The translations under genes were made by a program, and so were the position numbers. The notes under the pieces were generated by a model. It did no database searches. It had not been told where the DNA came from and saw only the letters and a program-made list of their open reading frames with translations. This document shows positions 5,489 to 46,300 of a DNA stretch of 64,000 bases, piece by piece. Position 1 is the stretch's first letter; the number at the start of each line of letters is the position of its first letter. Origin of the DNA: Chloroflexota bacterium (GTDB lineage Bacteria; Chloroflexota; UBA11872; VXNJ01); NCBI GenBank assembly GCA_965249595.1, contig OZ252242.1, forward strand, positions 1,718,158 to 1,782,157, given 5' to 3'.

Positions 5489-6658
5489 GTGGCAGGTAGC
5501 GCAAAACCACCGGTCTTAGTCGTATTGCAGCTCACGGGGGGCAACGACTTCATGAACTCGGTCGTACCCTACACGAATCCGGTCTATTACGACGCTCGGC
5601 AACGCCTCGCCATCCCCGAGGATGAAGTTCTGCCCATCGATGGCGCCCTGGGTTTCAACCCAAACCTGGCGCCGCTCAAGGAACTTTACGACCAAGGCAT
5701 GGTAGCCATCGTACAGGGCGTCGGGTACCACAATTCGTCCCGATCTCATTTCCGGGCGATGGACGTCATGCACACCTGCGAGCCCGACAAGGTGGGGATA
5801 AATGGCTGGTTGGCCCTGGCCACTCGCCAGTTGGACCCCGGCCATGATTCAGTGCTAACGACGGTCAATATCGGCCGCGGTATGCCCCGGGCCCTGGCTA
5901 GCTCCGGCGTGCCTATTACCTCGGTCGGTGATCTGGACCACTACGGCCTGATGTCCGGGATCGCTGCGGCGGAGCAACGGACCGAGGCTCTCAAGTGGTT
6001 CCAGGAAATGTACGCGCCGGCCATTGGTAGCGGCGCGGTCGTCGACTACATCGCCCAGACCGGTATGGACGTTATCAAGAGCGCGGAGTTGCTCAAAAAA
6101 GCCCCAATGATCTACGAGTCCCGCGTGGAATATGCCGACAACGCAGTCGCCCAGAGCCTCCGCGATGTGGCGCGCGTGCACCTGGCCGATCTGGGGACGC
6201 GAATCTTCTATGCTCAACACGGCGGTTACGATACCCACGCAATTCAAAATCCGACGCACCCGAGGTTGCTAAGAGAGCTTTCAGGCGCGATCAATTCCTT
6301 CTTTAAGGACCTGCGTGAACACGATTCCGACAATGAGGTCGTCATGCTGGTGTTCACCGAATTCGGTCGCCGGATGAAGGGCAACGGCAGTGGCACCGAC
6401 CATGGATCGGGTGGAGGAGCATTCATCATCGGCAAGCGCGTGAAGGGTGGGCTCTACTGCGAGTACCCGTCTCTTGAACCCGAGCAATGGCTCAACGGCG
6501 AGGACCTACAACACACCGTCGATTTCCGAAGCGTTTACGCCACGATGTTGGAGGGGTGGATGGGCATTGATTCCGCCGATATAGTTGGTGGTCAATACGA
6601 ACAATTCCAACCATTTATGCACGCTGCTTCGTCGGCTCCTTCATTTGGAACCCACTAG
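5489..6658 (+). CDS. DUF1501 family protein (sulfatase/alkaline-phosphatase-like fold)
   Basis: VLVVLQLTGGNDFMN near the N-terminus and TEFGRRMKGNGSGTDHGSGG near the C-terminus are typical DUF1501 motifs. GTG start with AAGGGAG upstream; no Tat signal visible. Confidence 0.8.
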   Translation: MAGSAKPPVLVVLQLTGGNDFMNSVVPYTNPVYYDARQRLAIPEDEVLPIDGALGFNPNLAPLKELYDQGMVAIVQGVGYHNSSRSHFRAMDVMHTCEPDKVGINGWLALATRQLDPGHDSVLTTVNIGRGMPRALASSGVPITSVGDLDHYGLMSGIAAAEQRTEALKWFQEMYAPAIGSGAVVDYIAQTGMDVIKSAELLKKAPMIYESRVEYADNAVAQSLRDVARVHLADLGTRIFYAQHGGYDTHAIQNPTHPRLLRELSGAINSFFKDLREHDSDNEVVMLVFTEFGRRMKGNGSGTDHGSGGGAFIIGKRVKGGLYCEYPSLEPEQWLNGEDLQHTVDFRSVYATMLEGWMGIDSADIVGGQYEQFQPFMHAASSAPSFGTH

Positions 6659-6684
6659 CGGTTAACGTCCTCGAGAGGTACAAC

Positions 6685-7698
6685 ATGGGACGTCCATACG
6701 CCTTACTGCGAACAGGTTTTCCTTACGTCAAAACAATCGGCATGAGGCGAATCACCAGCTATCCCATGCAAGTGGTGGTCACTGATGACGACCGGTTGTT
6801 TGTGCTGTGCCGCGGTGAAGGAACAGTCAACATCCGCAGAACCAACCAAGACGACATAGATCTCGGTTCCATCGGCGGTATCGGCACCGGCGATGGCCAA
6901 TTTATTTGGGCGGCTTCATTGGCGATGGACGGTGACGAGAAGTTGTACGTCTCCGACGAAGCCCTCAATCGCATTTCGGTCTTTAACGTCGATGGCGAAT
7001 TCCTGGGTAAATGGGGCGAACCCGGCGACGGCGATGGCCAACTGGACCGGCCGTCAGGGATCGCATTTGACTCCGACGAGAACCTTTACGTTGCCGACAC
7101 GCTAAATCACCGCATTCAGAAATTCACCAAGGACGGCGTTTTCCTGAAGAATTGGGGCGAGTTTGGGGAGAACGAGGGTCAATTCAACATGCCCTGGGGC
7201 ATTTGCGTGGATGAATTGGGCGAAGTGTACGTCTCCGATTGGCGCAATGACCGCATTCAAAAATTCACCGCCGATGGTGAGTTTGTAATGTCGATAGGTG
7301 GATCGGGCAACGGCAAGGGCGAATTCAACCGGCCGACGGGCGTTGCCGTGGACGGTGACGGTGACATCTACGTGTCCGATTGGGGCAACGACCGCGTCCA
7401 GCAATTTGCTGCCGATGGTCGGTACCTGGAATCCTTCAGAGGCGACGCTTCGTTTTCCAAATCAGCGACCGAATACTTGATGGCGAATCCCAAAACGATG
7501 CGGTTGCGGGAGATGACTTCACTCGAACCGCAAAAACGGTTCCGCCATCCCACTTCCGTAACCGTTGACGGCCAGGGTCGGATGTTTGTCACCGATTTCG
7601 GTTCTTTCCGCATCCAGATGTATCAAAAACAAGCAATTGCTTTGACGTCTGATCAGATCTCGCCCGAGCAACGGGCGCCGACTCTTTATCTCGCATAG
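6685..7698 (+). CDS. NHL-repeat beta-propeller protein
   Basis: Six repeats of the form LYV(S/A)D..N.RIQ.F..DG.F...(W/G)G..G.G.G.F..P.G(I/V)A.D. Confidence 0.8.
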   Translation: MGRPYALLRTGFPYVKTIGMRRITSYPMQVVVTDDDRLFVLCRGEGTVNIRRTNQDDIDLGSIGGIGTGDGQFIWAASLAMDGDEKLYVSDEALNRISVFNVDGEFLGKWGEPGDGDGQLDRPSGIAFDSDENLYVADTLNHRIQKFTKDGVFLKNWGEFGENEGQFNMPWGICVDELGEVYVSDWRNDRIQKFTADGEFVMSIGGSGNGKGEFNRPTGVAVDGDGDIYVSDWGNDRVQQFAADGRYLESFRGDASFSKSATEYLMANPKTMRLREMTSLEPQKRFRHPTSVTVDGQGRMFVTDFGSFRIQMYQKQAIALTSDQISPEQRAPTLYLA

Positions 7699-23022: not shown

Positions 23023-23515
23023 CCCTTTAATGACGGCGGTGATTTATTACCGTCGCAACGACTCTTCCCGATAGGCGGCCGAACCCTGTCGTATTCTGAC
23101 CCGCACCTTCGCCGTCGCAGTCGATGGCCTTTAGAGATCATCATGGTTATCTTGTATCTTGGAGGCGTGGTCAAATGGCTGTTTCCATCCGCTAACCTGA
23201 CAGCTTCGACCGTAGGCATCATGCCGCGTTCAATCGCTAGCCCTTGCTGATACAGCTTCTTAGAGAAATAAATTGATATCGACTGTACTGGCCGGACTCC
23301 ACCGTGAGATTTACAGCTGTGCGTGACGGAGGTACCGCACGCGTCGCCGGCAAAGTTGATTGGAGTCAAGATCAGCACACGAAAAATCGGATTGCCCAGA
23401 TTCAAAAGGTTCTACTTGGCCAAGAACGAGATTGAAGCCGTGTTTGAATTACTGAAATACACTACCTATTTATACTTACAATTACGTAATGTCAGTGAGT
23501 GATAATCCGACGTGA

Positions 23516-23794
23516 GAATGGAACGGAAGCAAGGATGAGGCGAATTACCGTGCACACGGCTTTCGATTCCAATTGGCCGCACTCGTATTCGATGACCCAC
23601 TCGCCGCGACAGTGGAGGACCCCAATTCGCTCGAAACGCGTTGGCGCACGATGGGCGTTGTAGCGGGAGTGGTGTTGATGGTCGTCCACACGTGGCCCGA
23701 ATACGATTCCTTGATCGGAACCGATGTCGGGCGCATCAGCAGCGCTCGAAAAGCGACCCGGAGAGAAAGGGCCGAATATGAAGCTGGTTCCTAA
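23516..23794 (+). pseudogene. brnT: BrnT-like (DUF497, COG2929) type II toxin gene lacking a canonical start
   Basis: In-frame translation EWNGSKDEANYRAHGFRFQLAALVFDDPLA...VVLMVVHTWPEYDSLIGTDVGRISSARKATRRERAEYE matches the DUF497 consensus (EWD..K...N..KHG.SF.EA..VFDDP...HT...RIISARKAT..ER..YE). A TGA at 23513-15 directly precedes the homologous region, and the first in-frame start is TTG at 23573. Confidence 0.6.
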
Positions 23795-24128
23795 AAAGCG
23801 ATCTGCCGAGCAAGCGCCGGATATTACAGAAATTGCCAAGTTGCCTGATGACCAAATCGACACGTCGGATATCCCCGAAGTGCTTGATTGGTCTGATGCC
23901 AGGCGTGGCGTCTTTTATCGACCAATCAAAAAACAAGTAACTATTCGAATAGATGCCGATGTAATCGATTGGTTCAAGAAACAAACACAAGGTCGCCGCG
24001 GATATCAAACCGACATGAATCGAGCCCTGCGAGAACATGCTTTGCGGGGCCAATCGGGAGCCAGTTTGGCGGAATCTGTCCAAAGCAAATCCGACTCTAA
24101 CTCCCTCGGGAAACCGGGCAATAGATAA
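23778..24128 (+). CDS. brnA: BrnA-like (COG3514) antitoxin
   Basis: MKLVPKK...DTSDIPEVLDWSDARRGVFYRPIKKQVTIRIDADVIDWFKKQTQGRRGYQTDMNRALREH matches the BrnA pattern. Overlaps the brnT 3-prime end by 17 nt; AAGGG SD upstream. Confidence 0.7.
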   Translation: MKLVPKKRSAEQAPDITEIAKLPDDQIDTSDIPEVLDWSDARRGVFYRPIKKQVTIRIDADVIDWFKKQTQGRRGYQTDMNRALREHALRGQSGASLAESVQSKSDSNSLGKPGNR

Positions 24129-24316: not shown

Positions 24317-26056
24317 ATGCCCCGGATCGGGGTCGGGCCAGATACGGTCCCAAAATCTCGCGCGAAGGCCATGCAACTAAATGCAATTAACACCTTCTCC
24401 GATTGCTTGTCAATAATTGTTCGGGCGTGTCACGAAACAGGCGCCATTCTTACGAAACATCGGATGAGAAATTCGGCGTCGGAAGAACATCACAGGAAAT
24501 TCAATGACGCAGTTGGGGCGATTACAAAGCACCACGAACTGCATCGAATCGCCGGTGCGCACGTAGTCGACCACCGCCGGCTGACTACCGACCAATTGCG
24601 TGAGGGGCTACTGAAGGTAAGGCCGCAATACCTCCACCAGGAAACCGTTTGTTCGAATTTCGAACAAGCGTTGTTTAAAGAAGAAAGTACCCAGCTACGA
24701 GTGCTTTCGCGGTTGATCCTCGTCGATGTGCTGTTAAATCAATTCGGATTCGAATTGCCGTTTGATGAGACCGAGGAAATGGTCATTGCATTTGAGCAAA
24801 CGGTCGTGGACCGATCCAATGAGATTGAGCTTCAAGATCTGGGGTGCGCCAGCAACACGTCGACACGATTCAAAAACCTAAAACTATACGAGTTCGTGTT
24901 GGAAGTGGCATGGCAAAACAACGACGATAAGTCGCCCGATGAAGTCAATTTGTTAAGAATGCTCCGCGAACGGTTAGGTATTTCGGAATCTGACAATCGC
25001 CTGATGGAAGCGAAGCTTGGTAAATATCCAAAGCTGGACAACGGGCTCCACGTGCGAGACGAGATCGATGAAGCGCGTAAGTCCCTGCAGGGACTTGGTT
25101 TGCTGTTTGCAATTCGCCGAGAAGACGGTGCCGACGTAGATCTGGTCCCCGCAGAGGTGGCCGAACTGATCAGAAATGTGGTTGGCACCCAAATGCGGGA
25201 TGAAGCCTACCGCATGATGATTCGTGAGCGGCCGGTTCGAAAAAAGGCGCACTTGACCAGCGTATTGGAAAAGAACGGCGTTGAGTACGGCAGATATGAC
25301 ACTTTGGAGACGCTGACAGACCTAGTCGTCAGCTATGTTCCACCGACCAACGCCATTAGCAGCAATTCACCACGGTACGGGCTGGCCAATAAAGAACTTG
25401 CGGCGTGGTGCCGAAATCTCGGCGATTCCAGCTCTGGGACTACCGACGAGATGGTGGACCGAATAATTCGCCATTTTGATCGGCGACGACCGGTTGTTGA
25501 ACACCTCGATGACGAAAGGGCAACGTGGTACGAATACTTCGAAGAGCTAGCAACCCGATATTACGATTTGCTCCGGTCTCAGGATGTCATTGCCAAAGAC
25601 TTGGAAATTGAGTCAAAGTTTGAAGAAGCAACCAACTACCTTTTTTCGGAAAAGCTGAAGCACACGCCGCTCAAGCAGCCCGGTTCAAACCACCCGGACG
25701 GGCTGCTTAGCCTGGGTTCCTACTACCTAATGTGGGACAACAAATCGAAAGAATCACCCGTTAGTCTTCGCGACCACGTAAAGCAATTCGACGGTTATAT
25801 GGAGGCAGCTGAGAAATCAGTCCCAATTTTCTTGGTTATCGGCCCCGCGTTTTCCGACGAGTCGGAGATTGAAGCAATTCGGTACCGGGCCGAGCACTTT
25901 GATCGCGCGATTACATTGATTACGGCCGCCGAACTTAGAGATTTGGCCGAGGAGTGGGCGAGCCCTGAGAACAAGCGTCGCGAAGAGCCGTTTCCTCTTG
26001 GGCTTTTGGGTGTCAACGGTCGATATTCGCGGAGCCAGTTGGGGAAAATTTCATAA
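24317..26056 (+). CDS. Hypothetical 579-aa protein: SAP/HeH-like DNA-binding helices plus C-terminal PD-(D/E)xK-like nuclease motif
   Basis: AT-richer codon usage than neighbours. HeH/SAP-like segments SPDEVNLLRMLRERLGISESDNRLMEAKL and KELAAWCRNLGDSSSGTTDEMVDRIIRHF. C-terminal FEEATNYLFSE...HPDGLLSLGSYYLMWDNKSK has E..PD..(13 residues)..D-N-K spacing. Alternative ATG at 24371. Confidence 0.6.
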   Translation: MPRIGVGPDTVPKSRAKAMQLNAINTFSDCLSIIVRACHETGAILTKHRMRNSASEEHHRKFNDAVGAITKHHELHRIAGAHVVDHRRLTTDQLREGLLKVRPQYLHQETVCSNFEQALFKEESTQLRVLSRLILVDVLLNQFGFELPFDETEEMVIAFEQTVVDRSNEIELQDLGCASNTSTRFKNLKLYEFVLEVAWQNNDDKSPDEVNLLRMLRERLGISESDNRLMEAKLGKYPKLDNGLHVRDEIDEARKSLQGLGLLFAIRREDGADVDLVPAEVAELIRNVVGTQMRDEAYRMMIRERPVRKKAHLTSVLEKNGVEYGRYDTLETLTDLVVSYVPPTNAISSNSPRYGLANKELAAWCRNLGDSSSGTTDEMVDRIIRHFDRRRPVVEHLDDERATWYEYFEELATRYYDLLRSQDVIAKDLEIESKFEEATNYLFSEKLKHTPLKQPGSNHPDGLLSLGSYYLMWDNKSKESPVSLRDHVKQFDGYMEAAEKSVPIFLVIGPAFSDESEIEAIRYRAEHFDRAITLITAAELRDLAEEWASPENKRREEPFPLGLLGVNGRYSRSQLGKIS

Positions 26057-31099: not shown

Positions 31100-32600
31100 G
31101 TTGTAAGGGGGGGACTCTCTACCATTTGTCAAGCCGCTGCGGCATCACTCCGGAGCAGTTCTGGCTGATAAAGGGTCTGGTTACGCAGCATAGCGCAGAC
31201 CACCGCCAACAAACGGTCAGCTACCGATCGCAACGCCCTTGCATGCCGATGGCCTCGAAGGCGTAATGCGTCGTATTTGCGTCGGCTGACCGGATCATGC
31301 TGAACCGCCACCCGGGCCCAGTGGTACATGGCATTGGCGAGTCGACGATGGACGGCATGGCGTCGGACAACGATCATGCTCTTGCCCGATCGCTTGGTTA
31401 TCGGCGCAACTCCGCATAATGAGCGCAGGGCGCGATAGTCTCTCCGCATAAGAGGATCATGCGCCTCGGTGAGCAGTGTGGCGAGGACCGTCCTTCCGAC
31501 TCCGGGAAGAGATGAGAGGATGGCCACGTCGCGCTGCCCGCTCTCACCCAGTGCATCGTTGGCGATGGCATCGGTTAAGCGGTCGATCTGGGTGTTGACC
31601 TCGAGCAGTTGACGCTGGATGAGCTTTAGACGTTCGGCGACCAGGGTGATCGTCGCGACGGCAGCCTCGGTTGTGCCCGGAGACACCTTTATCGCTTCCT
31701 GGCGCAGCATCGAGAGCACGCCTGTCGCATCAATGCGACGGATGCGATGGCGTTTTAGCAACTGGGTTACCCGGCCTCGACTCAATCGCCGCCCCCTCTC
31801 CGGTGTGGGAGCCATCTGCCACAGATCCAGGATCCATGGCTCGGTGACGTTGTTGCTGATCTCCAGGACCTGCGGATAGTAGCGCCAGAGTTGTTGTCGC
31901 ACCCGGTTGCTAAGGCGGGTGCGCTCCTTGGTGAGCTCCTGAAGCCAAACGTGAGAACTCTCTTAGCTCCACGGTCAAGGGATCTGGCGATGCCAGCTGC
32001 CGCAGCACCTGCGGATCGGTGCGCAGGGCATCGGCCAGGACCCTGGCATCGCGGCGGTCGTCCTTGGCGCCGGCTGGGAAGAAGCGATCACGGAAGCGAT
32101 CGAGTTGCTTGGGGTTGATGGCATGCACTTTAAACCCGCGATCGAGCAGGCTCTCGACCACCGGTCCATGCGGCACCTCAATGGCGATGGCGATATCTTC
32201 GGGGTCGGTTCCGGTGCGGGACAGGATCCAGGCGGCCATGGCCGCCAATCCGGATCCACGATGCGGGAAATTACGCTGACCATGTTCGTTGCCGTCAGCG
32301 TCGATGATGCAGACCTGGTGCTCGGCGATGGCCCTTCTCGATCCGGCGTACCAGGAAGTGTGTTCTTTCACGGTCCTTCCCCATGTGTGGTGCGCGATGG
32401 TATTGATCGCATTGAAGGTCCGCCACGACACCTGCCAATCCCTGTACCGGCGTTCTAAGACGCAAACTCTCCACGGGGCATCTGCCGCGGCCAGCTGCAC
32501 CGGGGCACGGGTCCCCCCCACGGTGCTCAAAAGACACAAGGGGCGATTGGTTACTCCCGGCCGCTGACCTTGACGTCATCCAGGCTGAGCAGAGCATCGC
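31100..32600 (-). mobile_element. IS110-family insertion sequence (boundaries approximate)
   Basis: Contains the IS110 transposase coding region, N-domain and C-domain in collinear order; IS110 elements lack terminal inverted repeats, so ends cannot be fixed by eye. Confidence 0.65.
31129..32539 (-). pseudogene. IS110-family transposase, split by a frameshift between 31913 and 31962
   Basis: ORF 31910-32539 is the DEDD N-domain (VCIIDADGNEHG..., IAIAIEVPHGP...AINPKQLDRFRDRF). ORF 31129-31902 is the C-domain (LQELTKERTRLSNRVRQQLWRYYPQVLE..., LPGVGRTVLATLL..., GVAPITKRSGKS). End coordinates differ by 1 mod 3. Confidence 0.7.
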
Positions 32601-32960
32601 GCATGCCCAATTGCTTAGTCAGATGAAGCTACCTAAAGGTACAGGGGCTTTGATTTTGCCCGGAGATCGCCGCTTTTATACTCATGGCCCACGATACCGA
32701 ATTCCCCGGGCGGCTGCCGCCTGGGGCCGCGTCGCATCGCTGATTGAGACCTGCAAGATGAACGGCGTCGAGCCCTACGCCTGGTTCAAGAGCACGCTGG
32801 AGAAGATCGCCACCGGCCACCCGCAATCGAAGATCCACGAGCTGCTGCCCTGGAACTTCGGGCCCGCGACCGACGCCGACTGACGACGGCGCTCAATCCG
32901 CCCTTCGATAAATCCCCATAGTCAACCCGGATCCCGATATGGGGTCAGGCCACCGCTTAC
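32600..32960 (+). mobile_element. IS66-family 3-prime fragment (transposase C-terminus plus terminal inverted-repeat end)
   Basis: WGRVASLIETCKMNGVEPYAWFKSTLEKIATGHPQSKIHELLPWNF matches the IS66 TnpC C-terminus. About 70 nt downstream, ccaccgcttac is the complement of the canonical IS66 terminal GTAAGCG... Confidence 0.6.
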
Positions 32961-34095: not shown

Positions 34096-35880
34096 TTACC
34101 TGGGTATTACCGGCAGAACGATATACGAAGCGTAGGCCGACGAGTGATGGATTACCTGGTGGGCTATCTCGAGACGAGCGTCCTGACCGATCGGCGCGCC
34201 GGTGTTGAGGTTGCGGTCAAAGCGAGGGAAATTGCTGCTGGAAATCTCCACTCGAAGTCGGTGGCCAGCCTGGACGACATGGCTGGTTGCCCAAAGGTCG
34301 ATCGTGTATTCGTAGACCCGGCCCGGGGTGATGGGCGAGGGTTCGGATGCTGATGCCCGATATCGGGCCCGGACAATTCCATCCTGCAAGTTTTGGGCAT
34401 AGCCATCTGGTCTGACGTCCACAAGTTTGGCGGTGAAGTCAGTGTCTACCGCACTGGATGCAGCAAATAAGCTGACACTGATTGGACCGGTGATTTCCAT
34501 GTCGCTGTCCAGCGGCTCTGATGTATAGATCAGTACGTCCTGCCGCTCCTCCACCTCCCGTTGATCTGCGACACCGTAGGGAATGATCAAAGTGTTGCCC
34601 CCACGCGTCGGTGCCGGATCGTGAGGATCAAAGACATAGGAGTCCGGGGCCTCATCGCCCGGAGGATCGATAGAAAGGGACCCGGAGCCGTTAAGGGTGT
34701 TGGCCGCACCGTCGGAATGGAGATAGAACCGGGTGTAAATTGTGCGGGCCAGTGGCCACTCGTTCTCGTATCGCCAGCGGTTCTCGCCCATCACGAACAG
34801 ATATATCGGCGGATCGTCCAGTATGCCCGTGTCCTGGTCTTTCAGCCAAAAATCAAACCAGCGCAACAGGTATTCGTGGAGCTCTATGCGGGCGTCGTCA
34901 CCAAAGTCGATGTCCCCGGCGTCTCCGGAGCTTGACCCAGTGTACGGGCGCAGGTGTGCCCAGGGCCCAACTAGTAATTTCTGGTTTTTCCGCGCTAGTT
35001 GGCTTCCGCCTTTCTCTCGAATGCCGCTGTACGCGTTCAACGCCCCTTCCAGGAATATGTCGTACCAGGAAGTGACGTGAAACATCGGGATGGTGATGCC
35101 CGACAGATGTCGATTTAGGTTGATACGCCACCAGTAGGGGCCGTCTCCCTCGTTTGCAAGGTATTCCCGAAAGTACGGTGCCGTTTCTTCCAAAAGGTTC
35201 GCCCAATCGCTCAAGGGCAGGTGGCGAAACCATTCTTCGGTCAGCGGTCGGGCGAAGTTGTCAGCGGGCAGCAGGTACTCTTCGATCTTTTCCAATAGAT
35301 CGGTGCGGCCCAGGCGCTCCAAAGTGTTGCGCCCTTTATGGATGGCATAAGGAACCATCCAACCCCATTCCATTGCTCCGCCGGTGTGGTAAACCCAACT
35401 CTGGTGGAAATCGGAAGAAGCGGAGACCGGAGCCATTGCCTGGAGGTGCGGGGGCAGAGGGTTATTGGTGGCCAACGTGTACTGCGTTGCGCCCATATAC
35501 GATTGCCCGGTTGTGCCGACTCGTCCGTTGGACCATGGTTGGCTGGCGGTCCATTCGACGGTGTCGTAACCGTCCTGGACCTCCTGGAAAAGTGGGTCGT
35601 AGTCTTCCCCGTCTGATGCGAAGCGGGCGCGGCAGTCCTGGCTGACAACCACATAACCGCGGCCGGCGAAGTACCACACGGAATGGTCCGGATCATCGAC
35701 ATAAACGTCCTGACCATAGGGACTGCGGGTAATCAGGACCGGATATCTACCCGGAGCCTCAGGGCGGACTACATCGCATGCCAAACGAACCCCGTCCCGC
35801 ATCGGCACCATGACGTTTCGTTCGCGCACCACGCTAGAACTCTCCGCATATGAGGACACGTCGTGCTCCTGTTCGGCCAT
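34096..35880 (-). CDS. CocE/NonD-family (S15 X-Pro dipeptidyl-peptidase-like) alpha/beta hydrolase
   Basis: PVLITRSPYG, nucleophile elbow GQSYMG and a C-terminal PepX_C-like domain. Confidence 0.8.
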   Translation of the reverse strand: MAEQEHDVSSYAESSSVVRERNVMVPMRDGVRLACDVVRPEAPGRYPVLITRSPYGQDVYVDDPDHSVWYFAGRGYVVVSQDCRARFASDGEDYDPLFQEVQDGYDTVEWTASQPWSNGRVGTTGQSYMGATQYTLATNNPLPPHLQAMAPVSASSDFHQSWVYHTGGAMEWGWMVPYAIHKGRNTLERLGRTDLLEKIEEYLLPADNFARPLTEEWFRHLPLSDWANLLEETAPYFREYLANEGDGPYWWRINLNRHLSGITIPMFHVTSWYDIFLEGALNAYSGIREKGGSQLARKNQKLLVGPWAHLRPYTGSSSGDAGDIDFGDDARIELHEYLLRWFDFWLKDQDTGILDDPPIYLFVMGENRWRYENEWPLARTIYTRFYLHSDGAANTLNGSGSLSIDPPGDEAPDSYVFDPHDPAPTRGGNTLIIPYGVADQREVEERQDVLIYTSEPLDSDMEITGPISVSLFAASSAVDTDFTAKLVDVRPDGYAQNLQDGIVRARYRASASEPSPITPGRVYEYTIDLWATSHVVQAGHRLRVEISSSNFPRFDRNLNTGAPIGQDARLEIAHQVIHHSSAYASYIVLPVIPR

Positions 35881-37395: not shown

Positions 37396-40300
37396 CTAGT
37401 CATTTACCGGAACGGGCACCAGATAAACATCGTAAGCGGCATCAGTTCCCAACGGCTCGGCGGCGTGAAACGGATCGTGATCGGCGAAATCGGGAACCAG
37501 TTGATCTCTGAGAATGTCACCCAACAGGGCGAGTTTTACCGGCAGCGGATCGCCTGGATGATATTCAAACACCGCCGCCTGGAAATACTGGCGGGTGAAT
37601 CCATAGGTCGTGCCCTCCGCGTGCAGTCTGCCGTCAAGACGCACATCAACCCTGGCATCGGTTTTGGGAAAGCCGAATGCACCCACTCCGCCCAGGTCGT
37701 AGAAGAAAGCTGCGAAGCCAACTTCGGCTCCTTCTATTGAGAAATCCGATACCTTGTGACCCCAGGGACCAAACGGCTCTCCCGGGTTGGGGTTTAAAAT
37801 CCCGGGCTCGGTACCCTGGTCCAAAGAGCCACCTACACCACCGCCGAGAGAGTCCCAGCCCAATCGGCGTTCCACCAGCCAGCCCTGACCGACGTTGTGG
37901 AAATCGACTACACCGCGCTGATAGAACTGGGTTAAGGTGCCGGTTTCCAAAACCAGGACCTCAGAGGTTGGATAACCCCAGCGATCCAATTTTCCGGTGG
38001 CTTCATAGTGCGCCAGGAAGTTAGCCTGCACGACAAGGCCATTGTCAAGCGTTACTGTCAGGTTTGGAATGTTGTGGAGCAGGTCGCTTTTGCCCGGTGC
38101 CTGCACCGAGAGGCTGACGGCCACTTCAACGGCGTGGGCAAATTCGGGAAGGATCGGATCCGGCGGGACGATCCGCCGCCCACCGCCGCCTCCACCGCCG
38201 CCGCTTCTGCTGACGCTGCGGCGCAGCGATGGTCTACCGGATTGAGAGGGCGACCAGGCGCCGACGCCAGAAGAGTTTTCGGCCCGGATCTGCAGCTCAT
38301 AGTCGCTGTCGTTGTCAAGTGCCGGGAGAATAACCTCTAGGCGACGATCGCCAATCGCCCAGATACTTGACATCAGCGTCCAGGAACCTGGAACATCGGG
38401 CGCGCTGGCGAATTTGTGGCGAAGGTCATAGGACTCGACCCGGGCGCCGCCGTCGGAGGATGGCGGCCGCCAAACGACGGTAAGGAACTGATCTCCCGCC
38501 GTCGCGCTGGTGATATTCGGTGCGGTTGGCCGCTGCACAATGGTGGTTCCGGTCACCGGCTCAGACCGTTCGCCGGCGCCGACCGAATTGCGCGCCCTTA
38601 ACTCCACGTTGTAGCTGATCCCGTCAGCCAGCCCGAGGAGCGAGTACTCAAGGCTGCCACCGGTCCAGATACTTCGAACTTCGGTCCAAGAGCTTGCTTG
38701 GTCCGGATCTTCATTTTTCTTATAGCGAAGGCCGTAAGCTGTTATCGCGCTCCCGCCAGGATCCGTAGGGCTCTGCCAGCTGATCATCAATGTGCGAATT
38801 CCACCGATTACCGATTGGATAGCGGGGGGCCCGGGGACGGATATCGGTGTTCCGTCGCCAGATTCCGACCAACCACCGGAGCCGGCGATGTTGACGGCGC
38901 TAATTTGTACGTCGTAACCAGTCCCGTTGGCTAGACCACCCAGGGAATAGGCGAGGCGTCTACCGGACCAGACATCTTGAATTTGCGTCCACGATCCGGA
39001 AACATCAGGGGCGAGGCTTCTCTTGTGGCGAAGGTGGTAGGTGGCTATCTCAGCCCCGCCGTCGTCAATCGGCCTTTGCCAGCTGACGATCAAAGTGCGG
39101 TTGCCAACTTCGACCGCACTAACGGTTGGAATGCCCGGTATTACTACCGGAGTTCCGGAACGCGTTGAGGACCATGGTCCGGGATCCAGCTGAGAATCGG
39201 CGCGCACCTGGAGATCGTAGGACGTGCCGTTGGCCAACCCGGACAGTGAATACTGTCGGTTCCCGCCGGACAAGATGCCGATAACTGTGGTCCACGAACT
39301 TGGGCGGTCCGGATTCCGGCTTCTCTTGTGGCGAAGATCGTAATTGGTAATTGGTGACCCGCCGTCGTCCGTAGGGCTGAGCCATTCGACGGTCAATTCC
39401 CTGTCGTCAGCGGAAATAGTTCGGATAACCGGTTTTCGTGCATTGTCATTGGGCACGCCGCTGCGAGGACTCGACCAGCTTCCGCCGCCCGCCGCATTTA
39501 CTGCTCTGACCTGCACGTCATAGGGTGTGTCATTGAGCAATCCGGATAGTGAGTATTCGAGATTGCCGCCGGACCAGATATCGAGCGCCTCTGTCCAGGA
39601 GCCTGGCTCATCCGGATCACTGCTCCGCTTTCGACGAAGATCATAGCCGGTTACGACAGCCCCGCCGGTGGCTGATGGGCGTTGCCAGCTAATGATGAGT
39701 CCCTGGAAATAAGAGACGACTTCAGTGACATTAGGGCGCCCCGGCACCGTCCTGGGGGTAGCGTCACTGGACGTTGACCAGACACCTTCGCCTTCGGCAT
39801 TTACCGCTCTGATTTGAATGTCGTAGGCAGTTCCATTGCTCAGCCCGGAAGAAATCGAAAAATTGAGATTGCCGCCGCTCCAAAAACCCGAAACCAGGGT
39901 CCAGGAACCGGGCACGTCGGGGTCAAGGCTTCTTTTGCGTTGCAGGTCGTAGCCGGTAATTTCAGCGCCGCCGTTATCGCTTGGCTGATTCCAGTACACC
40001 GACAATTCCCGCGGTCCGGGTTCGATTTGGCTGATCGTTGGTGACCCGGGAACCGTTCTCGGGATACCGTTAGCGGATGTCGACCAAGCGCTGGCGCCAG
40101 CGGAGTTGACCGCCCGGACTTGGACGTCATAGGTAATTCCGTTGTCTATCCCGGTGGAAATCAGGTAGCTACGTTCGCGGATCGGCCAGACCGCAATGAT
40201 TTCAGTCCAGTTTCGATTCAGATCGGGAGCGCTGCCGCGCTTGTGCCGAAGGTCATAGCCGGTAATTTCAGCGCCGCCGTTAGCACCCGGGGGATCCCAA

Positions 40301-43300
40301 AAAACCTTCAGTTTTAGCGGGCCAGGATCAATTTTGCTGATGTTGGGTTCACCCGGGACTGTCCTGGGGGTACCGGTCCGGGGCGCGGACCAGGCGCCGT
40401 CGCCGCCGGCATTGACGGCCCTGATTTGCACATCGTAGGCAATCGAATTTTCTAGTCCGGAGACGGTGTATTCAAATCGACCTCCGGCCGATATCCGATC
40501 AATTAGGGTCCACGAGCCTTCAACGTTTGGGTCGCTGCTTTTCTTGTGGCGGAGGTCAAAGCTGGTAATCGATGCGCCGCCGTTTTGCGAGGGACTTTGC
40601 CAGCTGACGGTCAGCAAATTAACACCGGCCTCAACGTCGACAATCACGGCCGCTCCGGGTACCGTCCTGGGTGTGCCGTTGCGTGAAAGAGACCAGACGC
40701 CGTAATTAACTGCCGTGGCCGCCCTGATTTGAATGTTATAACTGGTCCCGTTTTCCAACCCGTAGACGGTGGCCTCGAGATCACCGCTCGACCAGGTCCT
40801 CAACTCCTCGGTCCAGGAACTCCCCTGGTCTGGGTCGGCACTCTTCTTGTGGCGAATGTCATAGTGAGTGATCTCGCCACCACCAACGTCGGTTGGGCGT
40901 TCCCAGAAAACTTTTAATTGCCGTGGATCGGGATCGATTGCGCTGATAATTGGCGCCCCCGGCGGTTTTTGCGGCATAGCGCTAAACGAAGTCGACCATG
41001 CGCCAAAGCCGGCGGGATTGACCGCCCTAACCTGTAGGTCATAACCGGTCCCGTTATCCAAGCCGGCAACGATGGCTTCGAGGTCGCCGTTCGACCAGAT
41101 GCCGAGATCCTCAGTCCAGGAACTCTCCTGGTCCGGATCGGCGCTCTTCTTGTGGCGAAGGTCGTAACTGGTGACCGCAGCACCCCCATTAAAAGACGGT
41201 CGCCGCCAGCTGATCGTCAGCGTGCCGTCTCCCGGTTTTGCCTGCCTGATGGTCGGTGCTCCAGGGATAGTTCGCGGCGTACCGATTCGGCTGTCTGACC
41301 AATCACCGCGGCCGGCGGCATTGACCGCTAGTATCCCCACCCAATACGATTCGCCGTTTTCAAGGCCAGTCAATACCAGGGCGAGTTTTGCGTCGTCGCC
41401 GGCGGTCCAAGCAGCCTGCAGTTCCCGCCAAGATCCGGCGACATCGGGGTCAATGCCTTTCGATAGACGCAGGTCATATGAAGTTATCGGGGCGCCGCCA
41501 TCGTTTGCGGGCACCGACCAGATGACGGTCAATCTGCCGTCACCGGGCAGCAAGGGGGAAAGCACGGGCTCGCTCGGGTAGGTATACGGCGTGCCCGTCT
41601 TTGTCTCTGACCAGGGTCCCGGGCCAACCGAATTTACCCCTCGCACCTGAGCTTCATAGCTATCGCCGCCCGCCAGCGGAGCGACGATGTGATTCGACCG
41701 ATAGCCGGCAATATCCTTTTCAATTACCCAATCGGAATCTTGCCGACCGGAGAAAAGACTTCGACTCCGAACTTCCCAATAATCTACCGGCGCCGTATCT
41801 TCGTCGGAATATTCCCAACTGACCTCCAGCGAAGATTGAGCCGGGGCGACTTTAAATTCGATAGCGATTGATGGAGGATCGATCGGAACCCCTTGGTCTT
41901 CAATCCAAAGGCCCGCACCGGCAATGTTTAACGCCCTGATTTGGACGTCGTATTTGGTGCCGTAGTCCAGTCCAGCAATCTCGTATTTGAGATCGCCGCC
42001 GGCCCAAAAGTTAAAAACTTCAACCCAGGCGTCTGCCGGATTGGGATCTTCGTTGTCCCGATAACGCAGATCGTAACCGGAAACCGCCGAGCCGCCATTG
42101 TCAAGCGGGACGGTCCAGCTGAGTTGCAGCAGTTTGATGCCGGGCTTTATCGAGATGCTCGCCGGCAAGCCCGGGGTAGTGCGAGGGGTTCCTGATGTCG
42201 CGTCGGACCAGCGGCCAATTACAGCCCCGCTGACGGCACGTATTGACACATCGTATTCGTGTCCGTTGGTTAGTCCGGTGATGGCATATTCGGTGCTCCC
42301 AGAACTCCAAATCCCATTGCGCACGGACCAGGACCCGGTCAGGTCAGGGTCACTACTAAATTTGTGGCGCGAATCAAACCTGGTAACCGTGGGGCCACCC
42401 GCTCCCGGCGTCCATTGCACGGTCAAATTGCCGGCTCCGCCGGTTAACGAATCGATGGTTGGTGAACCGGGGGCATTTTTTGGAGTTCTGCTCAACGTGA
42501 ACGACCACCCGCCGCCGCCAGCGGCGTTTGCCGCCTGGAGTTGGACATCATAGGAAATGTCGTTGGTCAGATTGGATATGTCGTGCCTAAAGATTTTGGG
42601 GCGATGTCCCCGGCGTTGTCAACCGGAGTCCAGCGGGAATCCGCCTTGTCGGTGGCGTCACTGCGGATGTAACGCAGGTTGTAGGCGGTAATCGGCGATC
42701 CACCGGTGTCGGTGAGTTCGGCCCAGATCACCTCGATACTCTGATCAAAGCCACTGGCCGCGGTGATGCTAGGAGTTCCGGGCGCTCTTCGCGGCGATTC
42801 CCGTCTGACCAGGGACCAAAGCCCGGACCCATTGGTGTTTTGAGCGCGAATTTGGAAGTCGTATTCGATGCCATTGGTCAAACCGCTGCTGACGGTGTGG
42901 GTGAGGGCGCCGCTCGACCAAATCGATGCTTCAACGGTCCATTCGTCATCGGCCCGTTTTTCGGCATCGGCCCTTATGAATCGCAGGTCGTAGGTTGTAA
43001 CCGGCGATCCACCGGTAACCGTCGGGGCTTGCCAGGTCACGGTCAGCGATCCGTCGCCGGGCGTGGCCACAGTGATCGTCGGGGACCGCGGAACCGGCGC
43101 GGGGGTGCCCGTCTGAGACTCCGACCATGGACCGTCGCTGTTGAGATTGACCGCTCGAATTTGAACATCGTATTCGATGGTGTTGACAAGCCCGGTCAGT
43201 AGATAACGCCGCGCTCCAGAACTCCAGATAATGCTTCCCTCAGTCCAGTTGCCATCCACGCTCTCGTCGGCATCGGTCCGGATGTGGCGGATATCGTAGG

Positions 43301-46300
43301 TGAGGATTTCCGATTCATGGTCCAATGGCGAGGGGGTCCACTCGACACTCAGCGCGGTGTCAGTCGCGGCCACCGAGTTGATCGTGGGCGTTCCAAGCGC
43401 CCGTTGGTGTCCGCGGGCGATGATCGCCCAGGAATTGAGCTAGCCGACGGTCCCTCTCCGGTTGTCGGTTATGCGCAGCGTCCAGTCCCCGGTCGGGTCT
43501 TCGCCCAGGTGGCGCGAAGTTCCAAAGTGAAATCGTCCCGACCACGAATATCCGGGTGAATTCAAATAGGTGGAAAGAACGGATATTGTCCCCGACGGCG
43601 ACTCCAGCTCGATGCGCAAATCGCGCGCCGAGCCATGTGAAAAGTCGATCGGCACCTCGATGTGTTCGACGAATGAGATTCCGTCCGGAACGGTGAGGGT
43701 GCTGCCGAGCGTATTCGTGCCCCGGGATGTTCGATCGGGAATTCGCAGATCCAGGCCGCCCGATTTGGCCTCCGCTTTTTCCAGTGGCGGGAGTTTGGTC
43801 CAGCCGGCGGCCATTTCGACAGCCGCCGCCGCATCAACCACTCCGAACCCGTAGGCGTGGTTGAAGGAGTACTTTTCTGAATCCTGTCGATACTTCGGGG
43901 CCCCTGCCTCCCAGCCGGAGTTGCGCGGGTCATTCTTGCGGGCCGAACCGGCCAGTATCAATTTGACGTCGCGCCAGGTGAGATCGCTCTTGGCCTTGCG
44001 AATCAGGGCGGCCACTCCGGATACCATCGGCGTTGACGCCGACGTGCCGCCGAAGCTGTCGCGATAGCGATCGAAGTTGTCGATGGTCGTAATTCCCCGC
44101 GCGCCTACGCGCCGGGAATCATTGGACGGTGCGCAGACCCACAGGTTGGAACCGGATTCGGAATAGTTGACCTGTTTTCCCTGGTCGGTGACCGCACAGG
44201 CCGCTACGACTCCGTAGAAGCTCGCCGTCTCGTCCAGATTCGAATAGTCGCCTTCCCTCCGCCCATTGCCGCCGGCAAAGACGTAGACCGTACCCTTTCC
44301 GCCGGCACCGTCGGCCAACCCGGCTTCGACCCCCAATTTCCACGGCAGGGATTGGGTTTTCAAACCCGGCCTGTCACTTCCGCCCCAACTGTTGTTCGAC
44401 ACATCGGTAACCTCGCGCTCGGTCGACATCGCTATCCCCTTGTTCACGTCGGTGGCCGAAAGGAGCAAATTGAATCCGTAGATGGTAGCCCGTGGAGCTA
44501 CGCCGCGGACGCCTAAATCGTTGTCGCGGGCGGCTATGATGCCGGCGACTCCGGTGCCGTGATTTGCAGTATCCCGGTGGACATCATCGCGATTCCCAAA
44601 GTCAAGATTTCGGCTCGCTTCGACGTTATCGATCAGGTCTTCGTGGGAATGATCGAGTCCGTTGTCGACCACCGCCACCCGAATTCCTTCGCCCATGTTG
44701 GAACCCCACACGCCGGAGACATTTATGTCTTCACCTGCGGTTGCGCCGTCGCGGCCTTGGTTATTCAGGTGCCACTGGCAGCCGTAAAGGTCGTCATCGT
44801 AGGCGGTTGCGATTGCGCTGCAATCAGTGATAAAGGACTCGTAGGCGGTATTGCGCCGCAGGGTAAACGAATACTGAGTGTTAAACGTGACCAGCGTTGA
44901 GGGCCTGGCGACAATCAGCGAAGTGACCCGATAAAAATAGGTGCCCGGATCCAGTCGGTAGGCGAAACCATCTCCCGGGACCAGGTTCCCGCTTACGTCA
45001 AAAACTCTGTAGTCGAGCACGGGTAAGAAGTCACTGCCAATCGCGAACGCGACTTCGGAGGTCTGCGTCAGCGCGAATTCATATAAGTCGAAATCATCAA
45101 ATCCTGATATATCGGCGGAAACTTTTCGATTGAAACTGAGTGGAACCGCCGATCCAGACGGGTCAAAATTCTCCGGCGTGCGATCGAGGTGTAGCGTGTA
45201 ACTGCCGCCGCGCGAACCCGAAAGTTCAACTTTTATGTAATAGGTTCCCGGTGCCAAGTCGGCGCGGATATGGAAGTTGTTGGTAATGCGCTGAAAGCCC
45301 CAAGTATCGTTGCTGTCAATCCCGGTGCCGTCCTGCCTTTGCAGGGCACCGACGGTGTTCAAAACTCCTGTCGTGTAAGCGCGAATATCGGTTGCCTCGG
45401 TTAATTCAAACTCGAAGAAATCAATGTCGTCGCCATCGAAGGCGATTTCCTCAATCTCCTCACCGATCCCGATCGTGGTGGCAGTGGCGCGGCTGCCGCC
45501 GGCGTCAACGACGGTCTCGGCATGCAAGGTGTAGGGACCGCCGTTGCCGATCCTAGAAGTGGACTGATAGGCCGAAACGGCAACGTAGTAGATCCCGGCC
45601 GCAAGTGATCGCCGAATCAGGAAATTTAGCCCCTCGGACTCCAGCACGTGGTCATCGTTGGCTTCCAGCAAATCCTCGTCTTCAGCAAACAGGTGCCCGA
45701 CGGTGTCAGTTCGTCCGGTTGTGTAAATGAGCACATCGGTGGCGGACGGCAGCGTCAGTTGGTATGTGTCGACATCGGTACCGGGAAAGATCTGCTCGTC
45801 CACCGATCCATCAAGGGGCAGCGTGCCGGCGGTGGCGATGGTGTTGCCCGGCTCCGTCCACAGAGCGACACTCAGTTGATAGGACCCGGTCAGGGCATTT
45901 ACGCCATCGCGATAAGAGCGAACTTTGACGTAATAGGTTCCCGCGTCGAGTCGCGCGTTGATCTGGAAATTGAGTAAGCTGGCGAAGAAGTCGATGTCAT
46001 CGGACGCCGAAATCTCGTTGCCGTCACTGTCTTGCAGCTGCCCGACGGTGTCCAGGTTGCCGGTCGTGTAAATGTCAACGCTCGTTGGATCGCTAAGGAC
46101 AAGGCGGAAGAAATCTTCATCGGAACCAGGGTCGATGCTGCCGGCCAACGGCGTGCCCACGCTGATTGCCGTGGCCGTGGCCCGATCATTGCCGTGATCA
46201 TCGATGGTCAATTGACCAGTCGCGGCGCCGGAGGAGACGAGCAGGCCGGCAACTGCGGCAATCGCGGCCAGCAGACCACCAATATTGCGACGGTTACTTG

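What the first reader, a model, noticed from the sequence alone, without database searches (positions are those of the whole stretch)
24317..26056. Orphan 579-aa protein: tandem SAP/HeH-like DNA-binding motifs plus a C-terminal PD-(D/E)xK-like nuclease core, with no partner methyltransferase
Inside the AT-rich islet and directly downstream of the toxin-antitoxin pair, a large protein has no recognisable global family by eye. It shows two helix-extended-helix segments that resemble SAP motifs (LLRMLRERLGISESDNRL; ELAAWCRNLGDSSSGTTDEMVDRIIRHF). A C-terminal segment fits a restriction-endonuclease-like PD-(D/E)xK core: E-x9-...HPDG-x10-WDNKSK, followed by a beta-strand and helix. No methyltransferase, ATPase or other companion is present in the window. 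This is consistent with a single-gene DNA-targeting defence or abortive-infection-like function, and it is the most plausible candidate for a previously undescribed system here.
Basis: inference. Interest (0 to 1): 0.8.

Follow-up and report, generated by a model that had tools for sequence, protein, structure and literature searches.

The report
Solitary FokI-type nuclease, new DNA-binding module
This gene encodes a member of an unnamed, rare but widespread family of stand-alone DNA-cutting enzymes that join a FokI-like cutting domain to a previously undescribed DNA-binding region, most likely a single-gene restriction-type defence that works without a protective methyltransferase.

Summary

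The protein is not an orphan. It belongs to a ~520-aa family, all annotated hypothetical: 405 clusters at 50% identity, and 155 loci among 185,579 species genomes. The family is scattered over many bacterial phyla and some archaea, with distant relatives in a haloarchaeal virus and on a megaplasmid. No gene, and no methyltransferase, is a conserved neighbour. Several copies lie beside Gabija, GmrSD, toxin-antitoxin genes, integrases or transposases.

Best reading: a solitary, modular, restriction-type endonuclease, possibly modification-dependent. The architecture is well supported. The defence role and the target are inferred. It is a new variant of a known kind, of moderate interest.

The parts
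24317..26056 (+). Whole ORF (579 aa plus stop) encoding the solitary FokI-type endonuclease family member
   Evidence: ORF list. 209 homologues in the word-indexed search. 405 clusters at 50% identity in the exhaustive search.
24317..24493 (+). Residues 1-59: lineage-specific N-terminal extension not shared with the family. In-frame ATGs at 24317, 24371 and 24464.
   Evidence: Homologues start at the position of residue 60. pLDDT is below 50. The family start codon position reads AGG at 24494-24496.
24494..24931 (+). Residues 60-205: conserved all-helical domain with no detected structural or sequence relative. Candidate specificity or sensor domain.
24932..25192 (+). Residues 206-292: winged-helix domain (helices 207-220, 224-233, 247-259; wing hairpin 264-267/273-276; helix 279-289).
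25193..25381 (+). Residues 293-355: helical segment with a SAP-like helix-extended-helix (about 306-342). The least conserved part of the protein.
   Evidence: Model helices 310-319 and 330-340. A SAP_new25 match at the corresponding place in relative P0137. 35% mean pairwise identity.
25382..25492 (+). Residues 356-392: SAP motif, a non-specific duplex-DNA binding helix-extended-helix
   Evidence: Translation. Pfam SAP_new25 E 1.2e-3 in the window protein, SAP in 8 of 37 members, and above the cut-off in distant relatives.
25493..25603 (+). Residues 393-429: low-confidence linker between the DNA-binding module and the nuclease
   Evidence: pLDDT 45-53, with segments 395-401 and 414-429 below 50.
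25604..25960 (+). Residues 430-548: FokI-type PD-(D/E)xK cleavage domain. E436 (25622-25624), D461 (25697-25699), D474 (25736-25738), K476 (25742-25744).
25961..26056 (+). Residues 549-579 plus stop: C-terminal tail with conserved F559, L561, G562 and G568
   Evidence: Alignments.

Best explanation
The gene encodes a stand-alone, modular DNA endonuclease of an unnamed family.

Shown:
- An N-terminal DNA-binding module of about 330 residues. It comprises a new helical domain, a winged helix, a SAP-like helix pair and a canonical SAP motif.
- A poorly ordered linker that joins this module to a C-terminal FokI-type PD-(D/E)xK cleavage domain. The acidic and lysine residues of that domain (E436, D461, D474, K476) are conserved throughout the family.
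- The gene travels alone, with no conserved neighbour and no cognate methyltransferase.
- The family is rare and patchily scattered across bacteria and archaea, with distant relatives in an archaeal virus and on a megaplasmid.
- The gene tends to sit in variable, lower-GC or mobile regions, sometimes next to known defence systems.

Inferred, by analogy with FokI and with modular NTP-independent restriction enzymes:
- The N-terminal module docks on a DNA feature. The SAP and winged-helix parts grip the duplex, and the helical domain and/or the winged helix supply specificity.
- The tethered cleavage domain then pairs with that of a second molecule and cuts both strands at a distance from the bound site.
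- No protective methyltransferase accompanies the gene, and the DNA-binding module is alignable end to end across phyla. The recognised feature is therefore most likely something the host genome lacks, such as a base or backbone modification of foreign DNA (Type IV-like logic), rather than a diversifying short sequence.
- The biological role is then single-gene restriction of phages or other mobile DNA.
For: Architecture:
- AlphaFold models: full length pLDDT 78; N-terminal module alone pLDDT 92, pTM 0.88.
- The sensible Foldseek hits are all PD-(D/E)xK nucleases.
- The catalytic residues map onto FokI D450/D467/K469.
- They are conserved in 79 species-level members and in relatives of about 20% identity.
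- Relatives pass the Pfam cut-offs for FokI_cleav_dom and SAP.

Solitary status:
- Clustering of flanking ORFs in 85 loci gives no partner. The best cluster is a generic ABC ATPase in 15 loci; integrases occur in 10.
- Among 150 nearest neighbours no methyltransferase family recurs.
- No methyltransferase motif ORF was found in the 64-kb window.

Mobility and defence flavour:
- 155 loci among 185,579 species genomes, across many phyla plus Thorarchaeota and Nitrososphaera.
- 2-3 diverged paralogues in some genomes, with unrelated flanks.
- The gene's GC is 7 points below the window's.
- Known defence neighbours: Gabija next to the L087 copy, a GmrSD-type Type IV enzyme in L001, and PDC-M31A/B in L002.
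- BrnTA lies upstream here.
- Distant relatives occur in Halorubrum virus Humcor1 and on Natrinema plasmid pNVE500 beside an integrase.

Precedents for the logic 'solitary modular nuclease means modification-dependent': PMC11037411 and PMC12191111.

In FAN1 the SAP domain contacts DNA phosphates non-specifically (PMC4201288).
Against: - No biochemical or phage data exist for any member.
- Defence association is anecdotal. Many copies have purely metabolic neighbours (L003, L005, this window apart from BrnTA), and no enrichment statistic was computed.
- No recognised modification-reader domain was found. The winged helix is generic.
- Two loci have a methyltransferase within 3-4 kb (L001, L004), and the Natrinema copy is 5.4 kb from a large N-6 methylase. 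Unlinked protection is therefore not excluded.
- The sequence match of the window protein itself to FokI_cleav_dom is below threshold (12.2 bits, E 0.12; hhalign E 0.17). The assignment rests on structure prediction, motif conservation and transitive homology.
- The C-terminal domain model is only of moderate confidence (pLDDT 60-87).
- In this window the family's start codon is lost, so expression of this copy depends on upstream ATGs.
Confidence: 0.55

Rival explanations
1. It is a conventional sequence-specific Type IIS restriction endonuclease. It recognises a short asymmetric site and cuts nearby, like FokI. Its protective methyltransferase is encoded elsewhere in the genome or has been lost.
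For: - FokI and N.BspD6I are the best structural matches, and Foldseek aligns N.BspD6I over nearly the full length at weak significance.
- The N-terminal DNA-binding module of about 330 residues is similar in size to FokI's recognition domain.
- Methyltransferases lie within a few kb in L001, L004 and the Natrinema plasmid.
- The DNA-binding region is somewhat less conserved than the nuclease: 35-46% against 60% mean pairwise identity for most segments.
- Diverged paralogues coexist in one genome, as expected if they differ in specificity.
Against: - No methyltransferase is a recurrent neighbour in 85 loci or among 150 nearest neighbours, and none was detected in this 64-kb window.
- Type II systems normally keep the two genes adjacent.
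- The N-terminal module did not retrieve FokI's recognition domain.
- The module is alignable end to end, with many conserved residues, from Chloroflexota to Clostridia. That is unusual for recognition domains that have diversified.
Confidence: 0.17
2. It is a structure-specific DNA repair or recombination nuclease. It would work like FAN1, which also combines a SAP domain, a helical domain and a C-terminal PD-(D/E)xK nuclease, acting on the host's own damaged or branched DNA.
For: - SAP plus helical domains plus a C-terminal PD-(D/E)xK nuclease is the FAN1 layout, and bacterial FAN1 exists (PMC4201288).
- The whole protein is highly conserved.
- Many copies have housekeeping-type neighbours.
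- Holliday-junction resolvase Hjc and NucS appear among the weaker fold hits.
Against: - The nuclease domain is closest to FokI, BspD6I, Mrr-like and HindIII restriction enzymes, not to VRR-nuc. There is no Pfam VRR_nuc hit.
- Its presence in only 155 loci among 185,579 species genomes, with phylum-hopping, multi-copy genomes, virus and plasmid carriage and lower-GC islets, does not fit a core repair function.
- There is no conserved linkage to repair genes.
Confidence: 0.13
3. It is a selfish or addiction-type nuclease of mobile elements. It would be a toxin-like or homing-like enzyme that promotes maintenance or spread of the DNA segment carrying it, rather than protecting the host.
For: - Patchy distribution, and association with integrases (10 of 85 loci), transposases, a temperate archaeal virus and a megaplasmid.
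- It sits next to a toxin-antitoxin pair here.
- Several copies occur per genome.
Against: - Copies within a genome are 70-80% identical with unrelated flanks, so there is no sign of a repeated element or a homing site.
- There is no conserved antitoxin or immunity gene next to it.
- It is not embedded in introns or inteins, and the closely related strain keeps the same chromosomal position.
Confidence: 0.1
4. This particular copy is decaying and non-functional, whatever the family does.
For: - The family's ATG start is AGG here.
- The neighbouring BrnT reading frame is preceded by a stop codon and lacks a start for its first ~20 conserved residues.
- An IS110 element has inserted 5 kb downstream relative to a 99%-identical strain.
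Against: - The 579-codon frame is fully open, with all conserved catalytic and structural residues intact.
- In-frame ATGs exist 30, 123 and 177 nt upstream of the lost start.
- In the 97%-identical relative the frame is open upstream of its retained canonical ATG too, and the gene caller there chose the upstream ATG (561 aa).
Confidence: 0.05

Closest known systems
FokI, and the FokI-like Type IIS enzymes N.BspD6I / R.BspD6I small subunit
   Same: - The overall plan matches: a large N-terminal DNA-binding region that includes a winged helix, then a linker, then the cleavage domain.
   Different: - The N-terminal module is unrelated to FokI's D1-D3 as far as the searches can tell. It contains SAP motifs and a new helical domain.
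- There is no cognate methyltransferase.
- The PD-to-DxK spacing is 13 residues rather than 17.
- The window protein's sequence similarity to Pfam FokI_cleav_dom is below threshold.
Modular NTP-independent modification-dependent (Type IV) enzymes, such as winged-helix-nuclease fusions of the DpnI/HhiV4I kind (PMC11037411) and MspJI
   Same: A stand-alone gene without a methyltransferase. Separate DNA-sensing and cleavage domains. A winged helix is present. Cleavage at a distance by paired nuclease domains is the expected mode.
   Different: No demonstrated or recognisable modification-reading pocket. The winged helix matches only generic family members. The domain composition (helical domain, SAP, FokI-type nuclease) is not among the fusions described in that paper.
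END nucleases (PMC12191111)
   Same: A single-gene defence built from a Type IIS-like nuclease domain without a methyltransferase, plus a sensor domain. These were also missed by PADLOC and DefenseFinder.
   Different: END uses a PLD-superfamily (BfiI-like) nuclease and an inactivated EndoIII sensor. Here the nuclease is PD-(D/E)xK of the FokI type, and no EndoIII-like domain was detected.
FAN1 (SAP, TPR and VRR-nuc)
   Same: It combines a SAP motif, a helical domain and a C-terminal PD-(D/E)xK nuclease. In FAN1 the SAP domain binds duplex phosphates non-specifically, which is a likely role here too.
   Different: The domain order differs. The nuclease subtype differs (VRR-nuc with a six-helix insert against the FokI type). 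FAN1 acts as a conserved repair factor, whereas this family is patchy and mobile.
Mrr-type Type IV enzymes (winged helix plus Mrr_cat)
   Different: There is no Pfam Mrr_cat or Mrr_N hit. The motif is D...DxK of the FokI type rather than D...QxK. The N-terminal module is much larger.

Membership tests
FokI-type cleavage domain (Pfam PF09254 FokI_cleav_dom) | PD...(D/E)xK catalytic residues at the positions of FokI D450, D467 and K469 | tested here: met
   hhalign aligns D461/D474/K476 to FokI D450/D467/K469. The FokI sequence was verified against 1FOK/2FOK. The residues are at least 95% conserved in 79 members and kept in relatives of about 20% identity.
FokI-type cleavage domain (Pfam PF09254 FokI_cleav_dom) | Same three-dimensional fold as the FokI cleavage domain | tested here: met
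   [not shown]
FokI-type cleavage domain (Pfam PF09254 FokI_cleav_dom) | Sequence score above Pfam's gathering threshold (25 bits) | tested here: inconclusive
   The window protein scores 12.2 bits, E 0.12. Nine of 37 close homologues hit at E down to 4.7e-4. Distant family member P0266 scores 28.1 bits, above the cut-off. Membership therefore holds by transitive homology only.
FokI-type cleavage domain (Pfam PF09254 FokI_cleav_dom) | Double-strand cleavage requires dimerisation of two cleavage domains | not testable with these tools
   No multimer modelling or biochemistry was available.
Type IIS restriction-modification system | A cognate DNA methyltransferase encoded with the endonuclease | tested here: not met
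   None was detected in the window. There is no recurrent methyltransferase among the flanking ORFs of 85 loci or among 150 nearest neighbours. Only occasional methyltransferases lie 3-5 kb away.
Type IIS restriction-modification system | Recognition of a short asymmetric unmodified sequence, with cleavage at a fixed offset | not testable with these tools
   Requires cleavage assays.
Type IV / modification-dependent restriction enzymes | A stand-alone nuclease with no protecting methyltransferase | tested here: met
Type IV / modification-dependent restriction enzymes | A recognisable modified-base or modified-backbone reader domain (SRA, YTH/EVE/ASCH, DpnI-type winged helix, SBD, iEndoIII) | tested here: inconclusive
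   [not shown]
Type IV / modification-dependent restriction enzymes | Cleavage depends on DNA modification | not testable with these tools
   Requires assays on modified and unmodified substrates.
SAP domain (Pfam PF02037 / PF18953) | A helix-extended-helix motif matching the SAP profile | tested here: met
Residues 356-392: SAP_new25 E 1.2e-3 in the window protein, below the cut-off. SAP hits 8 of 37 homologues (best 2e-6) and scores 30-38 bits in distant relatives, above the 23.9-bit cut-off. The model shows helices 358-367 and 376-388.
FAN1 / VRR-nuc repair nucleases | A VRR-nuc catalytic domain with a six-helix insert and a TPR domain | tested here: not met
   [not shown]
Any defence system catalogued in PADLOC-DB v2.0.0 | A match to a PADLOC protein model | tested here: not met
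   No hit at E up to 1.
BrnT/BrnA toxin-antitoxin module as a functional companion | Conserved co-occurrence with the nuclease gene | tested here: not met
   BrnT and BrnA domains lie upstream in this window. No such cluster recurs in the other loci.

The most novel reading that the evidence does not exclude
The family is a previously undescribed single-gene, methyltransferase-independent immune nuclease. It is shared by bacteria and archaea, with distant relatives in an archaeal virus and on a megaplasmid. In this reading the new N-terminal helical domain, together with the winged helix and SAP motifs, senses a chemical or structural mark of foreign DNA, such as a modification or hypermodification, and licenses a FokI-type cleavage domain. 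That would add a new sensor fold to the repertoire of modification-dependent restriction. It would also supply a natural FokI-like cleavage module with a different DNA-binding partner.
Probability: 0.35. Interest if true: 0.65.

Novelty: new variant of a known kind. Interest (0 to 1): 0.45.

Why it matters
- If the function is confirmed, this would be a new family of stand-alone restriction-type nucleases. It is absent from current defence catalogues (PADLOC), and every homologue named by a source is called a hypothetical protein.
- The family is found in hard-to-study lineages such as SAR202 and other Chloroflexota, gut Clostridia, Izemoplasmatales and Asgard-related and ammonia-oxidising archaea. 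Distant relatives occur in a haloarchaeal virus and on a megaplasmid.
- It pairs the biotechnologically important FokI-type cleavage domain with a DNA-binding module of unknown specificity that includes a fold with no detected relative. Working out what that module reads could give a new reagent, for example a modification-dependent cutter.
- It would also extend the emerging picture that many solitary Type IIS-like nucleases are sensors of unusual phage DNA.
- If the protein instead proves to be a repair nuclease, or a conventional Type IIS enzyme with a distant methyltransferase, the finding is an ordinary addition to known families.

Tried and rejected
1. Single-sequence and profile HMM searches of the PDB gave nothing meaningful. 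Sequence alone does not reach FokI.
2. PADLOC, NCBIfam and PHROGs gave no family for the protein.
3. hhalign of the family profile against a single FokI sequence was not significant (E 0.17). It was used only for residue correspondence.
4. The weak recurring Pfam hits GMP_PDE_delta, ENT and DUF4760 are all well below their cut-offs, have no structural support, and were rejected.
5. Foldseek full-length hits to membrane transporters and GPCRs have TM-scores of about 0.1 and were rejected as noise.
6. Search for a conserved partner gene: ORF clustering over 85 loci found only generic ABC ATPases, integrases, kinases and aminotransferases. A two-gene system is therefore rejected.
7. BrnTA as a companion was rejected, because the association is not conserved.
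8. Repeated-element hypothesis for multi-copy genomes: the flanks share no similarity, so it was rejected.
9. Islet boundaries by comparison with the nearest relative: L086 is the same locus at 99% identity, so no boundary information came from it. No tRNA genes occur in the window. The promoter and terminator scans were at background level.
11. Literature searches found no description of this architecture.
Full report
**1. The observation**

An ORF of 579 codons occupies 24317-26056 on the + strand. It lies in a 3-kb stretch of 51% GC, inside a window of 58.6% GC. It is directly downstream of two ORFs carrying BrnT (E 6e-12) and BrnA (E 1e-14) toxin-antitoxin domains.

It is preceded by a helix containing F435-E436. 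The second SAP-like segment is residues 356-392.

On its own the protein matches nothing above threshold. In Pfam there are only sub-threshold hits to SAP_new25 (359-389, E 1.2e-3) and FokI_cleav_dom (433-485, E 0.12). PADLOC, NCBIfam and the PDB sequence search gave nothing meaningful, and PHROGs gave only one marginal hit over the SAP segment.

**2. A real, conserved family**

- The word-indexed protein search found 209 homologues. Nearly all are about 520 aa, and every one that carries a name is "hypothetical protein".
- The exhaustive profile search found 405 clusters at 50% identity among 1.84 billion representatives, 111 of them below E 1e-30.
- Homologues begin at the position of residue 60 (MKF...). 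In this window that codon is AGG (24494-24496). The first 59 residues are therefore a lineage-specific extension reached from upstream ATGs, and they are modelled with pLDDT below 50.
- Among 79 full-length species-level members of 36-76% identity, 74 positions are at least 95% conserved. These include E436, D461, G462 and W473-D474-N475-K476-S477-K478.
- The same E...DG...WD(N/S)K signature survives in relatives of about 20% identity.

**3. What the domains are**

An AlphaFold model built on a 37-sequence alignment has mean pLDDT 78. Residues 60-390 are above 90, a linker at 393-429 is poorly ordered, and an alpha/beta domain at 430-579 scores 60-87.

The C-terminal nuclease:
- Foldseek's sensible hits are likewise N.BspD6I, the R.BspD6I small subunit, the Cap4 nuclease domain, McrC and Hjc, at weak E-values.
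- A profile-to-sequence alignment with the FokI cleavage domain is not significant (E 0.17). It does place D461, D474 and K476 on FokI D450, D467 and K469. The FokI sequence I supplied was verified as identical to 1FOK/2FOK.
- Distant family members pass Pfam's curated cut-offs. P0266 scores 28.1 bits on FokI_cleav_dom (cut-off 25). P0137, P0141, P0250 and P0237 score 30-38 bits on SAP (cut-off 23.9).
- The C-terminal nuclease and the 356-392 SAP motif are therefore well supported, by structure prediction, motif conservation and transitive homology.

The N-terminal module:
- Modelled alone, it is very confident (pLDDT 92, pTM 0.88).
- It has helices at 207-220, 224-233 and 247-259, followed by a beta-hairpin at 264-276. 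That is winged-helix topology.
- A further SAP-like helix pair lies at about 306-342, by correspondence with a SAP_new25 hit in P0137.
- In the most distant relatives this first ~170-residue region is replaced by unrelated sequence, while the rest is kept. That is the behaviour expected of a swappable specificity or sensor domain.

**4. Context and distribution**

Distribution:
- A scan of one genome per species found 155 loci among 185,579 species genomes.
- They fall in Chloroflexota/SAR202/Dehalococcoidia, Armatimonadota, Myxococcota, a Proteobacteria-labelled MAG, many Clostridia, Syntrophomonadaceae, Izemoplasmatales/Acholeplasmataceae, Aegiribacteria, Brocadiia and Victivallales. They also occur in Thorarchaeota and Nitrososphaera.
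- Some genomes hold two or three copies. Where measured, these are 70-80% identical with unrelated flanks, so they are not copies of a repeat element.

Neighbours:
- Clustering of about 1,350 flanking ORFs from 85 loci found no conserved neighbour. The most frequent clusters are generic ABC ATPases (15 loci) and tyrosine integrases (10 loci), at variable distance and orientation.
- A bulk scan of the 150 nearest neighbours found no recurrent methyltransferase.
- That scan found scattered defence genes: a Type IIG enzyme, DrmMI, AbiEii, AriA, mad genes, a DRT and PDC candidates. It also found integrases and resolvases. The remaining recurrent families were mostly metabolic or housekeeping.
- Individually inspected loci contain a complete Gabija pair 1.4 kb away (GajA 654 bits, GajB 519 bits), a GmrSD-type Type IV enzyme, the candidate system PDC-M31A/B, a Type II/III methyltransferase with transposases, and a HicB antitoxin. 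One locus has nothing defence-like.

This window:
- The flanking genes are metabolic: an amidase, an acyltransferase, a YhfX-like racemase and a GMC oxidoreductase.
- A six-frame motif scan found no credible methyltransferase in 64 kb.

Mobile carriers:
- Distant relatives are encoded in the accessory region of the temperate Halorubrum virus Humcor1.
- Another is on Natrinema plasmid pNVE500, beside an integrase and 5.4 kb from a large N-6 methylase.

**5. Mechanism**

Shown: a stand-alone protein with a multi-part DNA-binding module tethered to a FokI-type catalytic domain that keeps all its catalytic residues.

Inferred from established knowledge of FokI and related modular enzymes: the N-terminal module binds DNA, the tethered nuclease pairs with a second copy, and it cuts at a distance.

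SAP motifs bind the duplex backbone without sequence specificity in FAN1 (PMC4201288). Specificity here therefore more likely resides in the winged helix and/or the new helical domain.

Two observations bear on the target:
- The gene is solitary.
- Its DNA-binding module is alignable end to end across phyla. Mean pairwise identity is 35-55% per segment, against 60% for the nuclease.

The most economical reading is a conserved target that host DNA lacks. That is the logic of modification-dependent enzymes (PMC11037411). It is also the logic of the recently described END nucleases, which are solitary Type IIS-like nucleases that attack hypermodified phage DNA and were also invisible to PADLOC and DefenseFinder (PMC12191111). 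This last step is inference only.

**6. Rivals**

- A conventional Type IIS enzyme with an unlinked methyltransferase is not excluded. A few loci have a methyltransferase within 3-5 kb, and paralogues could differ in specificity. It conflicts with the general absence of a linked methyltransferase.
- A FAN1-like repair nuclease fits the SAP-plus-nuclease composition. It does not fit the FokI-type catalytic domain or the rare, patchy, mobile distribution.
- A selfish addiction or homing role lacks any conserved immunity partner or element boundaries.
- Decay of this particular copy is suggested by the lost start codon and a damaged BrnT neighbour. Against that, the frame is intact and conserved.

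**7. Comparison, novelty and verdict**

The cleavage domain is a member of the FokI type by fold and catalytic residues. The window protein fails the Pfam sequence threshold, but relatives pass it. The protein is not a member of a Type IIS R-M system as defined, because there is no methyltransferase and the recognition module is unrelated. It is not in any PADLOC family, and it is not a FAN1/VRR-nuc protein.

It works most like a modular NTP-independent restriction enzyme. I rate it a new variant of a known kind: a known cutting domain, with a new and unnamed DNA-binding architecture and a solitary lifestyle.

The functional claim (defence) is plausible but unproven, and the 0.8 interest score was generous. 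I score it 0.45.

Noticed in passing
window 24494-24496 (and ATGs at 24317, 24371, 24464): The family's conserved ATG start codon (MKF...) reads AGG in this window. The frame stays open 59 codons further upstream. The 97%-identical relative P0001 keeps the ATG but also has the open upstream frame.
   Followed up: partly
window 23513-23794: The BrnT toxin frame has a TGA (23513-23515) immediately before its conserved N-terminal sequence EWNGSKDEANYRAHGF. The first in-frame start is TTG at 23573, and the Pfam match covers only model positions 20-77. The toxin may be truncated or decayed, while BrnA (23724-24128) looks intact.
   Followed up: partly
window 31112-32644: A ~1.5-kb segment absent from the 99%-identical locus L086 carries an IS110-family transposase on the minus strand. 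The transposase is split into two ORFs: 31910-32539 with the DEDD_Tnp_IS110 domain, and 31129-31902 with the Transposase_20 domain. This looks like a recent insertion, possibly with a disrupted transposase.
   Followed up: partly
window 37396-46352: Large minus-strand genes for a 1699-aa protein with at least 14 fibronectin type III repeats, a 268-aa fn3 protein, and a 970-aa S8 subtilase with PPC and P-domain. This is a probable secreted or cell-surface protein cluster.
   Followed up: no
L007, L008, L011 (contig OZ242304.1); L048/L049; L051/L052: Single genomes carry two or three copies of the nuclease family. In the two sets that could be measured (L007/L008/L011 and L048/L049) the paralogues are 70-80% identical. 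All sets sit at unrelated positions. Whether the paralogues differ in DNA specificity is unknown.
   Followed up: partly
L087 6932-7768 and L089 (Humcor1) 6602-7432: A ~277-aa ion-transport-family (PF00520) gene lies next to the nuclease homologue in a Chloroflexota locus, and two genes away from the distant homologue in Halorubrum virus Humcor1. This is probably coincidence. It did not recur in the 85-locus clustering, which predates the retrieval of these two loci.
   Followed up: no
L004/L007 and L087 (downstream of the nuclease gene); window 34096-35880: Two Chloroflexota loci share the same downstream genes: an unknown 535-631-aa protein, a 241-aa protein and a Peptidase_S15/PepX gene. 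Their upstream content differs completely: a methyltransferase with transposases in one, Gabija in the other. That suggests a variable integration hotspot. A Peptidase_S15/PepX gene also lies about 8 kb downstream of the nuclease in the window.
   Followed up: no
P0135, P0137, P0140, P0141: A subgroup of the family is about 594-611 aa, with an extra N-terminal extension of about 100 residues. P0135 shows a weak zinc-ribbon hit at residues 3-23.
   Followed up: no
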